From: Pecten maximus
Taxonomy: Eukaryota
NCBI RefSeq assembly: GCF_902652985.1
Contig: NC_047015.1
Coordinates: forward strand, 30,628,001-30,692,000
DNA: 64,000 nt
Direction of reading: 5' to 3'
Made by a program: the position numbers. Of the stretch, positions 53,801 to 64,000 are shown piece after piece. Position 1 is the first letter of the stretch; the number at the start of each line of letters is the position of its first letter.

Positions 53801-56800
53801 TCAACAAATGTTGGACGAGGGGAGGTAACTCGTACAGCCTTGTACGAGTTATCTCCCCTCGTCCAACTAACGTTATATCTCAGATGCCGTTATATATCTG
53901 ATGCCAAATTAATTCAAAATGGCGTTCCGCGTTAATTTAGATTAAAAAATGAAGATTTTCTAAAAATAGACTTATTTGACCCCATAGCGAACGCTTTTAT
54001 TTGACCTCTGACCCTAAAACTTTTAGTGAGTAAAAGCTAGAGCCAGCCTTTAACTACAAATAACATAACTTGGCCAGGACAATCCAAGTATTATTTCAGC
54101 TAAGATTGAGCTGAATACCACAGGTGGAACTTGAGAAGAAGTTTAAAATGTAAAACTATTTTTAATATAGAATATATAGTGGAAATTCAAAATGGCGTAT
54201 ACCGGAAACCGTATGTGTCACAGAAAAACTGAAAAGGTCAAATTTATCAGAATGACATTCTACATCATACTAAGAACTTTTTTTGGAAAAAGATTGAAAA
54301 ATGAAGATTTTCTAAAAATGGACTAATTTAACCCCATAGCGAACGCTTTTATTTGACCTCTGACCTTAAAACTTTTGGTGAGTAAAAGTTAGCGCTAGTC
54401 ATTATCTACAAATAACATTAATACATAACCTTTGTAAAATGAATACTTTTAGAGTTATGGCCATTTTAAACTTTTCAATACATGACGTCATGGCGGCCAT
54501 CTTGAATTTCAAACCAACTTAAAAAAATAACATAACTTGGCCAGGACATTCCAAGGATTATTTCAGCTAAGATTGAGCTGAATGCCACAGGTGGAACTTG
54601 AGAAGAAGTTTGAAATGTACACACTTTTCTATTGAAATATATAGGGGGAAATTCAAAATGGCGTACAACAGAAACCGTATGTGTCACAGAAAAAACTGAA
54701 AACGTCAAATTCATTAGAATGACATTCTGCATCATATTTCGAAAGAATTTTTGAAAAAGAAGGAAAAATGAAGATTTTCTAAAAATAGACGTAACTTGAC
54801 CCTCAGGCGAGCTTTTTCATTTGACCTCTGACCTCAAAACAATGCATTATTAAAAGTTGGCCCCAGATGAGTCCTACAATAATATATCTTTGAAATTATT
54901 TGAACTGTTACCGTTTTGGAGCTACTTAAGCAAAATGAGATATGACGTCATGGCGGCCATCTTGGTTTCTTGACCTACTTGAAGATGTTGCTGTCACCCC
55001 TTCAACTCATGCCATATACAATAGGCATAACTGACTTGGCATACCTTTTACCATTTTCCCACAATTTGTGTGACAAAATAAAATGCAGAAGAAGAATAAT
55101 TAAATAAGTATTTATATAATAATCCGAATTTTTATGTTAATGACCGTAGCAACTAAACCGCAACTGTTCTGAATACATAATAACAAAATTAGATGATCTG
55201 ACCACGCGGGGACATTGTACGATGTTTACTTGCCGAAATATACGCATTTTAATTCCAATCCAAACCGCCTCACAGCTTCGGGTCGCCATCTTTGCTCAAA
55301 TCAAAACATCTGTGCGTTTGAAAGAGTCAGTACTGCAAAGCTTCTAAATGATCTTGTGATACAAATTTTAAGATTATAATAGAAACGAAATATGGATTTT
55401 AAAATAATTTGATTTAAATTACTTATGCTTTAGGTTAGCAAATAGTAGCAATTATTTACAATGAACTTTAACGTTGTACTCAATACTGATCACGATGCTT
55501 TTATTTAGACGTTTTCTATTTCTTTCGATTCATTTCATTTAAAGAATTGATTTAGATTTCCCAGTAATTTCGCGGGAAATGAATTTGATGACGTAGGTAG
55601 CCCACATGCTATAGAATCAGGCATCTATAGTCGATAAGTGGAGGTTTGGAGTGGATAACACTTCGGTCCATTAGCTGTATGACATTTCGTAGCGTCGGTT
55701 ATTAGAACGTGACCCAGAAAAAAAACCAACGTGATAAAAACAGAAGACCATTGTACATTACCGGATTATTTTCGCAATTTTTGAGACACCATTGTGCGGA
55801 ATTACAATGGAAAGTAACACTGTTTTAATTCATAGCTGTCGTATTGTAACCTATATGTAGTTGGGCAAGACCTACTTTCGTTTTACAGTTTACGGATATG
55901 GTCATATAAATAATTCATCTTCTCAACCATAGTCGAATTACTTCACGGGATAGTTCTATCAAGTATATTTGTTCTTCTTATGTACAGGATGCATCTTTGT
56001 TTAAAATTGACTGGTCTGCAGGTGTGATCTGGCTACTCTCAGCAGACCCTGACCCCGGGGTCACGTTACTATCGTATCCCTTTGCGAACACTTCATAATA
56101 AATGTATACACGACTGATTCGTTTGGATTACTACAACTTTCTACCTTCTTGAAGAGACGTGTATATGATATACCATATTTACGTTGATGGATACTTCAGC
56201 ATTTTAAATACTTTAATATATAAATACTTATAACCGGTAAGCTTGTAATAATAATAATAATAATAATAACTAGAAATTGTTGGTTAACAATTTGACGGGC
56301 TTTTCATTATTTAGCATAAATGACCTAAAGGCTTGGTATTTCCAAACATAAAAAAAACTATTTTAGAACACTTGATAGGTCATCCACATTCTAGTTTTGA
56401 TTAATCTGGCATCTGAGATATTACATTTCAACAAAGGAGTGGACGAAGGGAAATAACACGTACAGCCTTGTACGAGTTATCTCCCCTCGTCCAACTAACG
56501 TTATATCTCAGATGCCGTTATATATCAGATGCCAAATTAATTCAAAATGGCGTTCCGCGTTAATGGTAAACGTTACCGAAACACCAAAAAACATGAAAAT
56601 CATCAGAATAACATTTTGAATCATACTTAAATTTCTTTTTTTGGAAAAAGATTAAAAAATGAAGATTTTCTAAAAATAGACTTATTTGACCCCATAGTGA
56701 ACGCTTTTATTTGACCTTTGACCCTAAAACTTTTAGTGAGTAAAAGCTAGAGCCAGACATTAACTACAAATAACATAATTACCCGACCCCTGTAAAATGA

Positions 56801-62800: not shown

Positions 62801-64000
62801 TAACATAACTTGGCTAGGACAATCCAAGGATTATTTCAGCTAAGATTGAGCTGAATGCCACTTGTGGAACTTGAGAACAAGTTTGAAATGTAACACACTT
62901 TTCTATATTGAAATATATAGGGGGAAATTCAAAATGGCGTACAACAGAAACCGTATGTGTCACAGAAAAGCTGAAAACGTCAAATTCATTAGAATGACGT
63001 TCTGCATCATATTCCGAAAGAATTTTTGAAAAAGAAGGAAAAATGAAGATTTTATAAAAATAGACTAACTTGACCCTCTGGCGAGCATTTTCATTTGACC
63101 TCGGACCTTTAACTTGTGATTTTATAAAAGTTAGCCCCAAAGGTATTGTAACATAATATCATAACATGACTCTTGTTTCTTGAATACTTTTCGAGTTATG
63201 GCCGTTTTAAACTTTTTAAGTATGACGTCATGGTGGCCATCTTGGATTTTTTGACGTACTTGGAAATGTTGCTGTTACCCCTTTGGCTTATACCATACAA
63301 TATAATAGAAAGATCATTGGTATACCTCTTAAACTTTTAGGAGATGTATTGCTTACAAACTAAAGTGTAGAATAATAATAATAATAATAATAATAATAAC
63401 TAGAAATTGTTGGTTAACAATTTGACGGGCTTTTCACTATTTAGCATAAATGACCTAAAGGCTTGGTTTTTCCAAACATAAAAAACTATTTTAGAACACT
63501 TGATAGGTCATCCACATTCTAGTTTTGATTAATCTGGCATCTGAGATATAACATTTCAACAAAGGAGTGGACGAAGGGAAATAACTCGTACAGCCTTGTA
63601 CGAGTTATCTCCCCTCGTCCAACTAACGTTATATCTCAGATGCCGTTATATATCAGATGCCAAATTAATTCAAAATGGCGTTCCGCGTTAATAGTAAACG
63701 TTACCAAAACACCAAAAAACATGAAAATCATCAGAATAACATTTTGCATCAAACCTAAATTTCTTTTTTTGGAAAAAAATTGAAAAATGAAGATTTTCTA
63801 AAAATAGACTTATTTGACCCCATAGCGAACGCTTTTATTTGACCCTTGACTTTAAAAATTTTAGGTGAGTAAAAGCTAGAGTCAGGCATTAACTACAAAT
63901 AACATAATTACATGACCCCTGTAAAATAAACACTTTTTGAATTATGGGCATTTTAAGTTTTTTAATACATGACGTCATGGCGGCCATCTTGGATTTCGAA

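What the first reader, a model, noticed from the sequence alone, without database searches (positions are those of the whole stretch)
56246..64000. Self-targeting, nested ('Russian-doll') HINE cluster: elements inserted into each other's (AAT)n tract
Seen: copies 2 (56269-57457) and 6 (62224-63398) stop in their (AAT)n tract with no terminal hairpin, and a new copy begins right there. After copy 5's own terminus (ends 62160) there is a second, orphan terminus (62161-62216). Copy 2 itself starts in an (AAT)n run (56246-56269). Established: Helentrons/DINE-1 have subTIRs, terminal hairpins and a microsatellite, and insert at TT sites. Inference: copies 3-5 landed inside copy 2's microsatellite and displaced its terminus to 62161-62216, and copy 7 did the same to copy 6. 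The element would then carry its own landing pad, a self-amplifying route to large TE arrays.
Basis: partly seen in the sequence, partly recalled or inferred. Interest (0 to 1): 0.72.

Follow-up and report, generated by a model that had tools for sequence, protein, structure and literature searches.

The report
Nested tandem cluster of HINE transposons
Seven copies of one small non-coding rolling-circle transposon lie head to tail, and one was probably split when another landed in its short ATT repeat, but recombination has reshuffled the array, so self-targeting remains unproven.

Summary
Window 53640-64000 carries seven same-strand copies of one HINE-type (non-autonomous Helentron) family. 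Three copies (1, 2, 6) break off in their (AAT)n tract. One extra 56-nt terminus sits at 62169-62224.

Three corrections:
- The element lies on the minus strand.
- Copy 4 is not an insertion. It is an unequal-crossover product, with 1313 nt identical to the stretch 1260 nt away.
- The copies are mosaics: copy 1 and copy 2 are 99.8% identical in one monomer, and copy 1 and copy 6 are 99.6% identical in the 3' flank.

The nested reading of copy 2 (head 62169-62224, body 56270-57458, ancestor of copies 3-5 in between) fits and needs the fewest events. The break lies at a TTATTATT motif that also precedes every head.

In-register slippage or unequal exchange between those two motifs predicts identical junctions, so the window cannot separate the two readings. 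The published rolling-circle concatemer model predicts the opposite polarity.

Self-insertion with doubled short 5' termini is already described for Helitron2 elements in Fusarium.

I could not extend the contig or survey the genome, because no eukaryote collection was available.

The parts
53640..55103 (-). Copy 1, lineage A, with no 5' head. 3' CTAG at 53640-53643, flanked by TATATATATTT. 3' flank region to 53912. Three monomers, the first with a roughly 195-nt deletion. Truncated microsatellite at 55089-55103.
   Evidence: Its last monomer is 99.8% identical to copy 2's. Its 3' flank is 99.6% identical to copy 6's.
55104..56231 (.). Unrelated 1128-bp segment bounded by 19-nt inverted repeats. 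It sits directly against copy 1's truncated microsatellite. 14 unassigned nt (56232-56245) follow.
   Evidence: arms 55104-55122 and 56213-56231, 95% complementary. No other copy in the window.
56246..56269 (-). (AAT)8 on the + strand, which is (ATT)8 downstream of copy 2's 3' end on the minus strand.
56270..57458 (-). Copy 2 body, lineage B', with no 5' head. 3' subTIR with 1 mismatch, two monomers, and a microsatellite remnant TTATCATTATTCTT (minus strand) abutting copy 3's CTAG.
57459..59181 (-). Copy 3, complete, lineage B. CTAG at 57459. Three monomers. Microsatellite about 59106-59125. IR at 59143-59153. 5' subTIR at 59162-59172. Leader TTATTATTA at 59173-59181.
59182..60441 (-). Copy 4, a recombinant unit. 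59182-59836 is identical to copy 5 and 59784-60441 is identical to copy 3. The crossover lies in the shared 53 nt at 59784-59836.
   Evidence: 58524-59836 equals the stretch 1260/1261 nt downstream, 1313 nt with one 1-nt T-run indel; c4m2 equals c3m3 at 100%; the 3' flanks of c4 and c5 are 100% identical.
60442..62168 (-). Copy 5, complete, lineage B, three monomers. IR at 62131-62141, 5' subTIR at 62149-62159, leader at 62160-62168.
   Evidence: (95.7% to copy 3 over 1738 nt).
62169..62224 (-). Orphan 5' head. 17-nt spacer, IR at 62186-62196, 5' subTIR at 62205-62215, leader at 62216-62224. It lies between copy 6's CTAG and copy 5's head. Candidate head of copy 2.
   Evidence: It differs from head 3/4 at 1 position and from head 5 at 3 positions.
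62225..63399 (-). Copy 6, lineage A, with no 5' head. Two monomers; the one nearest the 5' end is divergent (76-83.5% to the others). (AAT)9.7 at 63371-63399 abuts copy 7's CTAG.
63400..64000 (-). Copy 7, lineage B'. Only the 3' 601 nt are present; the window end cuts it.

Best explanation
The region is a minus-strand cluster of seven copies of one HINE-type family.

Element layout, 5' to 3' on the minus strand:
- TTATTATTA leader
- 11-nt 5' subTIR, GGGCTTTTCAC
- IR that pairs with the subTIR
- (ATT)3(CTT)3 microsatellite
- 2-3 monomers of 466-473 bp
- a 3' flank of about 270 nt
- 3' subTIR
- 8-bp-stem palindrome
- CTAG

Most likely history:
- A resident copy 2 was hit by a member of another sub-lineage, the ancestor of copies 3-5.
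- It inserted without target duplication at the T|T at the very start of copy 2's ATT tract.
- This split off copy 2's 56-nt head, now at 62169-62224, from its body at 56270-57458.
- The insert was then doubled by unequal exchange into copies 3 and 5.
- Very recently it was doubled again, giving copy 4.

Why that site (inferred):
- The motif used, TTATTATT, is the same motif that lies just before every 5' head.
- I infer that the transposase places the 3' CTAG end immediately upstream of TTATTATT.
- Landing at a resident copy's 5' boundary then gives a perfect head-to-tail junction.
- Landing 56 nt further in, at the microsatellite start, gives a nested insertion with an orphan head.

Shown: the anatomy, the junction classes, the recombinant nature of copy 4, and the mosaicism.
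Inferred: that the copy 2 bracket is an insertion, the target rule, and everything about the enzyme.
For: Architecture and orientation:
- All five HINE substructures occur in the published order only on the minus strand (against passages).
- The head hairpin folds at -13.8 kcal/mol (z -5.9) and the 3' palindrome at z -4.2.

The bracket:
- One extra head lies upstream, on the minus strand, of three complete units.
- These are followed by a headless body.

The break point:
- On the minus strand the left side reads CTGT followed by TTATTATTA-GGGC.
- The right side reads CTAG followed by TTATCATTATTCTT.
- Removing leader-to-CTAG therefore restores a tract with three ATT-like units, the same number as in intact copies 3-5, at a T|T with no duplication.

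A separate lineage:
- Copies 3-5 differ from their neighbours 2, 6, 7 and 1 in the palindrome loop (TCGG against GGTT on the + strand).
- They have three monomers and form a clade at 88/90 support.
- They therefore arrived by transposition, not by copying a neighbour.
- Given that, nesting needs one event, whereas the rival needs an insertion plus one head duplication plus one head deletion.

Target motif:
- 6 of 7 3' ends are followed by TTAT(T/C)ATT.
- 4 of 4 heads are preceded by TTATTATTA.
- That 9-mer occurs 20 of 20 times inside the cluster on this strand.

Precedent:
- Helitron2-type FoHeli elements show multiple short (under 200 bp) 5' termini with a single 3' terminus.
- The authors attribute this to self-insertion (passages).
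Against: - In-register slippage or unequal exchange between the leader TTATTATTA and the microsatellite start TTTATTATT predicts junctions letter-for-letter identical to those seen. These are 9-10-nt direct repeats 56 nt apart around a strong hairpin. Deletion gives CTAG-TTATTATT-CTT and duplication gives head-TTATTATTA-head.
- TRF scores the doubled head as a plain 55-nt tandem duplication.
- The array demonstrably recombines: copy 4, c1m3 against c2m2 at 99.8%, and the 3' flanks of c1 and c6 at 99.6%. Junctions are therefore not independent. On the minus strand the order is 7(B') 6(A) ... 2(B') 1(A), which suggests a duplicated dimer.
- Two other headless bodies, copies 1 and 6, have no matching head inside the window.
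- The orphan head carries no site that ties it to copy 2 rather than to copies 3-5. It differs at 1 position from head 3/4 and at 3 positions from head 5, and all the differences are unique to single heads.
- Only one locus was examined, with no empty site and no solitary copy to fix the true element ends.
- An assembly error in a near-identical repeat cannot be excluded.
Confidence: 0.45

Rival explanations
1. No nesting. The array began as ordinary head-to-tail units with CTAG-TTATTATTA-head junctions. Replication slippage or unequal exchange then acted between the two direct repeats that flank each 56-nt head: the leader TTATTATTA and the microsatellite start TTTATTATT. This deleted the head at some junctions (3/2, 7/6, perhaps 2/1) and duplicated it at one (6/5).
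For: - The direct repeats and the intervening hairpin are present at every complete junction.
- The predicted products match the observed junctions exactly, including the number of ATT units.
- TRF finds a 55-nt tandem duplication of 2.2 copies.
- Unequal exchange is directly demonstrated in this array.
- McGurk and Barbash note that deletions spanning head-to-tail junctions are common in TE tandems (passages).
Against: - It needs more events once copies 3-5 are accepted as a separately transposed lineage.
- The two adjacent heads differ at 3 positions. The outer head is no closer to head 5 than to head 3/4, so a recent local duplication of head 5 is not indicated.
- Recombination on 9-10 nt of homology should be far rarer than exchange between 466-bp monomers.
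Confidence: 0.3
2. The headless copies are 5'-truncated transposition products. The transposase sometimes starts at the TTATTATT at the microsatellite start instead of the true 5' boundary. It then mobilises a unit with no head, which lands next to other copies. On this reading the extra head is an unrelated local duplication.
For: - The break in copy 2 is exactly at the start of the ATT tract, and in copy 1 within about 3 nt of it, rather than at random positions.
- The internal motif equals the motif at the 5' boundary.
- Copies 1 and 2 share a near-identical headless 5' part.
Against: - It leaves the orphan head unexplained.
- I saw no report of internal initiation in Helentrons in the passages I read.
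- The near-identity of copies 1 and 2 is equally explained by gene conversion.
Confidence: 0.1
3. The array is a rolling-circle concatemer, made by replication of a circular intermediate that had lost a termination signal, as proposed for centromeric Helitron arrays in plants.
For: - Three junctions, two of them independent, are identical head-to-tail joins of CTAG-TTATTATTA-GGGC, as a circle junction would be.
- Tandem Helitron arrays are attributed to this mechanism in the literature (passages).
Against: - That model yields many 5' ends with a single 3' end, and 3'-truncated inner copies.
- Here 7 of 7 copies keep the 3' palindrome and CTAG, and 3 of 7 lack the 5' head. That is the opposite polarity once the element is oriented by HINE architecture.
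- Units belong to at least three sub-lineages with different monomer numbers, not to one template.
Confidence: 0.05
4. Part of the structure is an assembly artefact of a long near-identical repeat, especially copy 4 and the doubled head.
For: 1313 nt are repeated with a single homopolymer-length difference, a pattern that assemblers can create.
Against: - The headless junctions and the orphan head lie in stretches that differ from each other by 3-9%, so they are not products of collapse or expansion.
- The window contains no N.
Confidence: 0.05

Closest known systems
HINE, the non-autonomous Helentron elements: Drosophila DINE-1, mite HINE-Mo, oyster Cg_HINE (PMC4067079 and PMC7492417, passages only)
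   Same: - 5' subTIR, an IR that pairs with it a few nt away, and a microsatellite in the left flank.
- Central tandem repeats.
- 3' subTIR followed by a palindrome close to the 3' end.
- T-rich flanks and no visible target duplication.
   Different: - Monomers are 466-473 bp, against the 160-180 bp reported as predominant among Cg_HINE repeats.
- The 3' flank is about 270 nt with an extra 25-bp-stem palindrome, against about 60 nt in Cg_HINE.
- The microsatellite is a trinucleotide, ATT/CTT; Cg_HINE are mostly 4-nt motifs.
- The subTIR may sit 9 nt from the 5' end, not 2-4 nt.
- No autonomous partner was seen.
Self-insertion in Helitron2-type FoHeli elements of Fusarium oxysporum (PMC5148889, passages only)
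   Same: Doubled short 5' termini (under 200 bp) upstream of a single 3' terminus, interpreted as one element inserted near the 5' end of another. The authors also discuss three copies in tandem as either repeated insertion into a 5' end or rolling-circle replication.
   Different: In the passages read, no microsatellite is described at the FoHeli insertion point. Here the displaced head is 56 nt, and the break is at a motif that repeats the element's own 5' boundary sequence.
Tandem TE dimers from insertion-site preference, later expanded by unequal exchange (McGurk and Barbash, bioRxiv 10.1101/158386, passages only)
   Same: [quoted passage not shown]
- Tail-to-internal junctions are explicitly ambiguous between 5'-truncated and nested elements.
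- Expansion by unequal exchange.
   Different: Those cases are P, hobo, R1 and other Drosophila TEs that show target-site duplications between units. Here the element is a rolling-circle type with no duplication.
Rolling-circle amplified Helitron arrays (Xiong, Dooner and Du 2016, seen only as summarised in PMC12628747, PMC8268682 and PMC7492417)
   Same: Tandem arrays of a rolling-circle element with truncated inner copies.
   Different: The polarity is opposite. Those arrays have many 5' ends and one 3' end; this one has all 3' ends and is missing 5' ends.
Microsatellite-targeting transposons: MuTAnT in Medicago (PMC4486113, listing and abstract start only); a lepidopteran Helitron-like family that disrupts (GAAA)n (Coates 2010, seen only as a reference title)
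   Same: A TE whose insertions fall in a simple-sequence tract.
   Different: Those elements target genomic microsatellites. Here the tract belongs to the same element family.

Membership tests
HINE (non-autonomous Helentron) | Pair of 11-13-nt subterminal inverted repeats | tested here: met
   GGGCTTTTCAC and GTGAAAAGCCC. Exact in 4 of 4 heads. At the 3' end, exact in 6 of 7 copies, with 1 mismatch in copy 2.
HINE (non-autonomous Helentron) | Short IR complementary to the 5' subTIR, 1-22 nt away | tested here: met
   GTGAAAAGACC lies 8 nt (7 nt in head 5) after the subTIR on the minus strand. The hairpin folds at -13.8 kcal/mol, z -5.9, and 0 of 200 shuffles fold as well.
HINE (non-autonomous Helentron) | Microsatellite in the left flank, upstream of central tandem repeats | tested here: met
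   (ATT)3(CTT)3 lies 17 nt after the IR and is followed by 2-3 monomers of 466-473 bp. This order holds only on the minus strand.
HINE (non-autonomous Helentron) | 3' subTIR followed by a palindrome near the 3' terminus | tested here: met
   GTGAAAAGCCC-GTC-AAATTGTT-NNNN-AACAATTT-CTAG in 7 of 7 copies. The subTIR starts 38 nt from the end.
HINE (non-autonomous Helentron) | Insertion in TT or T-rich sites without target-site duplication, confirmed by empty sites | tested here: inconclusive
   7 of 7 3' ends are followed by T, and 6 of 7 by TTAT. No empty site or solitary 5' end is available, so the exact ends are ambiguous.
HINE (non-autonomous Helentron) | Termini shared with an autonomous Helentron (Rep/helicase/endonuclease) | not testable with these tools
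   No such ORF in the window: 25 ORFs of at least 150 aa, mostly inside satellites, and 0 Pfam hits for the 5 non-satellite ORFs tested. No genome of the organism was available.
Rolling-circle concatemer array (Xiong-type) | Multiple 5' ends with a single 3' end; inner copies 3'-truncated | tested here: not met
   7 of 7 3' ends are present, but only 4 heads for 7 bodies. The model is as summarised.
Nested self-insertion (FoHeli-type composite) | Short orphan 5' terminus directly upstream of a complete element, with the matching headless body downstream of the insert's 3' end | tested here: met
   Orphan head at 62169-62224, complete units at 57459-62168, headless body at 56270-57458.
Nested self-insertion (FoHeli-type composite) | Orphan head and headless body shown to be one element, by an empty-site allele or shared sub-lineage markers | tested here: inconclusive
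   The head carries no informative sites; all 3 variable positions are unique to single heads. No second haplotype is available.

The most novel reading that the evidence does not exclude
Each copy of this HINE family carries, 56 nt inside its 5' end, a copy of the sequence that marks its own 5' boundary (TTATTATT, the start of its ATT microsatellite).
- The transposase places new copies just upstream of that motif, so every resident copy offers two homing sites.
- One site gives perfect head-to-tail dimers. The other gives nested copies and orphan heads.
- Unequal exchange then expands these seeds into arrays.
- That would be a rolling-circle element with a built-in landing pad, seeding its own satellite-like arrays with all 3' ends kept. 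This polarity is the reverse of the published concatemer model.
Probability: 0.3. Interest if true: 0.6.

Novelty: new variant of a known kind. Interest (0 to 1): 0.35.

Why it matters
Tandem arrays of transposons are a proposed starting point for new satellite DNA. The Helentron-type elements described in bivalves and flies are among the main carriers of satellite-like repeats.

If an internal microsatellite really works as a homing site for the same family, three things follow:
- It gives a concrete, sequence-level rule for how such arrays are seeded.
- It explains why related copies cluster.
- It predicts orphan heads as countable footprints genome-wide.

If instead the pattern comes from slippage between two short direct repeats, it is an ordinary example of junction decay in a recombining array.

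In either case, the locus shows that missing and doubled termini in such clusters cannot be read as insertions without an empty site.

Tried and rejected
- **Other copies in the window.** I looked for solitary copies to fix the true ends. blastn with copy 4 and a more sensitive run with copy 3 found nothing outside 53640-64000.
- **Other satellites as HINEs.** I asked whether the nine other satellite arrays belong to HINEs with similar flanks. Self-blast showed no shared dispersed flanks. One exact 10-nt inverted pair turned up between the flanks of 1 of the 9 arrays, which I treat as chance.
- **Taxon or autonomous partner.** Pfam gave 0 families for the 5 non-satellite ORFs tested, out of 25 ORFs of at least 150 aa.
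- **The family in print.** Text search for two subTIR motifs and a 23-nt monomer motif returned 46 papers, and the 10 listed are unrelated primer coincidences.
- **A report of a HINE inserting into its own microsatellite.** The searches listed none. The nearest is the FoHeli self-insertion paper. These searches cover open-access text only.
- **Rolling-circle concatemer origin.** Rejected on polarity (see rivals).
- **(ATT)n as an obligatory 3' tail.** Rejected, because copy 1's CTAG is followed by TATATATATTT.
- **A target-site duplication for the 1128-bp TIR-bounded segment.** Nothing convincing was found beyond a trivial dinucleotide.
Sequence past 64000, genome-wide start/end counts and haplotype comparison could not be run. 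The only genome collection on hand is bacterial and archaeal, and I did not search it.
- **Supplements.** Supplementary tables of PMC7492417 (subTIR, IR and microsatellite sequences of Cg_HINE families) were not seen. They could show whether an ATT-bearing family is already catalogued.
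Full report
**What is there.**
- One repeat family occupies 53640-64000 and occurs nowhere else in the window.
- It has seven same-strand copies.
- The motif it called the terminus (GTGAAAAGCCC on the + strand, part of a hairpin) is present only 4 times: at 59162, 60422, 62149 and 62205.
- These motifs are far above chance. GGGCTTTTCAC with up to 1 mismatch gives 16 matches against 0.58 expected, and 0 of 100 shuffles reach 16.
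- Every (AAT)4-like tract in the 64 kb lies inside the cluster: 18 of 18 matches, against 2.41 expected.
- Copies 2 and 6 run from their last monomer into an AAT tract and straight into the next CTAG.
- A 55-nt unit is doubled at 62105-62224.
- Copy 2 is preceded by (AAT)8.
Copy 1 (53640-55103) is a third copy that stops in its microsatellite.

**Orientation.**
- Published HINE architecture runs 5' subTIR, IR that pairs with it, microsatellite, central tandem repeats, 3' subTIR, then palindrome near the 3' end.
- I took this from passages of PMC4067079 and PMC7492417.
- This order is found here only on the minus strand:
  - leader TTATTATTA
  - GGGCTTTTCAC
  - 8 nt
  - GTGAAAAGACC
  - 17 nt
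  - (ATT)3(CTT)3
  - 2-3 monomers of 466-473 bp
  - about 270 nt of 3' flank
  - GTGAAAAGCCC-GTC-palindrome-CTAG
- The hairpins fold well beyond shuffled controls.
- This matters for one rival. The rolling-circle concatemer model gives many 5' ends and a single 3' end. I saw it only as summarised in PMC12628747, PMC8268682 and PMC7492417.
- This array keeps all seven 3' ends and lacks three 5' heads, so that model is not met.

**The array recombines.**
- Positions 58524-59836 equal the stretch 1260/1261 nt downstream: 1313 nt with one T-run length difference.
- Copy 4 is therefore an unequal-crossover product of copies 3 and 5, not an insertion.
- Copies 3 and 5 are 95.7% identical over 1738 nt.
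- The monomers of copies 1 and 2 nearest the 5' end are 99.8% identical. The near-identity runs up to the truncated microsatellite and stops there.
- The 3' flanks of copies 1 and 6 are 99.6% identical, while their monomers are only 76-88% identical.
- A tree of the first 600 nt gives {1,6} at 100/100 support and {3,{4,5}} at 88/90, with 2 and 7 basal to the latter.
- On the minus strand the order is 7(B') 6(A) orphan 5 4 3 (B) 2(B') 1(A). The pair (B',A) occurs twice.
- Both B'-to-A junctions carry a long ATT run next to similar sequence: 56246-56868 matches 63376-63997 at 95.7%.
- The headless junctions 7/6 and 2/1 may therefore be one event copied once.
- The present arrangement is not a clean record of insertions.

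**Junction classes.**
- All four heads are preceded by TTATTATTA.
- 6 of 7 3' ends are followed by TTAT(T/C)ATT. Copy 1's is followed by TATATATATTT.
- Every intact microsatellite also starts TTTATTATT, 56 nt downstream of the leader.
- Two junction classes result:
  - CTAG-TTATTATTA-head: 3 junctions, 2 of them independent.
  - CTAG-TTATT...microsatellite-body: copies 3/2 and 7/6, plus the (ATT)8 after copy 2.

**Nested insertion against slippage.**
- Taking the unit from leader to CTAG out of copy 2 rejoins CTGT to TTATCATTATTCTT.
- This leaves three ATT-like units, as in intact copies, at a T|T and with no duplication.
- That is what a Helentron-type insertion should look like.
- However, in-register slippage or unequal exchange between the leader and the microsatellite start produces the same letters. 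It yields both the head deletion and the head duplication.
- The heads carry no informative sites. The orphan differs from head 3/4 at 1 position and from head 5 at 3, and all differences are unique to single heads.

**What tips the balance slightly toward nesting.**
- Copies 3-5 are a distinct lineage, with a 4-nt loop difference, three monomers and their own clade. They must have arrived by transposition.
- Nesting then explains the orphan head and the headless copy 2 with that single event.
- The rival needs the insertion plus one duplication plus one deletion.
- I put nesting of the copy 2 bracket at 0.45 and slippage or exchange at 0.30.
- Internal initiation giving truncated copies gets 0.10, a concatemer 0.05 and an assembly artefact 0.05.

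**Mechanism proposed (inferred).**
- The transposase sets the 3' CTAG end just upstream of TTATTATT.
- Each resident copy offers that motif twice: at its 5' boundary and at its microsatellite start.
- The two sites give head-to-tail dimers and nested copies respectively.
- Unequal exchange between monomers and whole units then changes copy number, as shown for copy 4.
- From memory, and not checked in any call: transposases of this rolling-circle type in bacteria (IS91, IS608) choose targets that resemble the sequence at their own element ends.

**Comparison with what is known.**
- Membership in the HINE class is met on the four structural criteria tested.
- It is inconclusive on target site and untestable on the autonomous partner.
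- The closest precedent for the phenomenon is in Helitron2-type FoHeli elements of Fusarium. Multiple short (under 200 bp) 5' termini with a single 3' terminus are attributed there to self-insertion. Three tandem copies are discussed as either repeated insertion into a 5' end or rolling-circle replication (PMC5148889 passages).
- McGurk and Barbash describe TE dimers that arise from insertion-site preference and expand by unequal exchange. They note that tail-to-internal junctions are ambiguous between truncated and nested elements.
- A review reports shuffled loci in Crassostrea gigas, with truncated or tandemised Helitron parts inserted in other elements (PMC12628747 passage).
- The possibly new part is that the landing site is the family's own microsatellite and mimics its 5' boundary.
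- The searches listed no paper that states this. They cover open text only, and supplements were not seen.

**Limits.**
- No genome of the source organism and no eukaryote collection were available.
- The contig could not be extended, no empty site could be sought, and the organism is unidentified.
- The window has no N.

Noticed in passing
window 55104-56231 (plus 56232-56245): An 1128-bp segment unrelated to the HINE family, bounded by 19-nt inverted repeats that are 95% complementary. It sits exactly at copy 1's truncated microsatellite, and 14 unassigned nt separate it from the (AAT)8 before copy 2. It may be a second, different transposon that landed in the same AAT tract. It has no other copy in the window and no clear target duplication.
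   Followed up: partly
window 1060-53627: Nine unrelated satellite-like arrays (periods 17, 36, 35, 46, 33, 30, 29, 42 and 44 bp; up to 2 kb each) fill much of the first 53.6 kb. The 44-bp array ends 12 nt from copy 1's 3' end. They share no flanks. Only one 10-nt inverted pair was found between the flanks of 1 of the 9 arrays, so they do not look like HINE cargo of this type.
   Followed up: partly
window 59330-59385 and the same place in each copy's 3' flank: A long palindrome with a stem of about 25 bp (-26.4 kcal/mol for the 121-nt stretch, z -7.6) lies inside the 3' flank. It is nearly perfect in copies 1 and 6 and carries mismatches in the others. Next to it is a 17-nt unit, CGTTATATATCAGATGC, repeated twice in every copy.
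   Followed up: partly
each monomer, e.g. 58028-58049; also 40213-40661: 14 of the 16 monomers carry TGACGTCATGG, followed 2 nt later by GCCATCTTG (14 occurrences each). From memory, this is a cAMP-response-element-like palindrome next to a YY1-like GCCAT core. A 155-bp repeat near 40.2-40.7 kb carries the reverse-complement CAAGATGGC once. Whether these elements spread promoter-like motifs was not examined.
   Followed up: no
window 43833-43860 and 11837-11898: A perfect G28 homopolymer and a perfect (TTG)20.7 tract, both reported by TRF.
   Followed up: no
window 53913-54185: Copy 1's first monomer has a deletion of about 195 nt. The deletion starts exactly where copy 1's 99% identity with copy 6 ends (53936), which marks another recombination or deletion breakpoint in the array.
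   Followed up: partly
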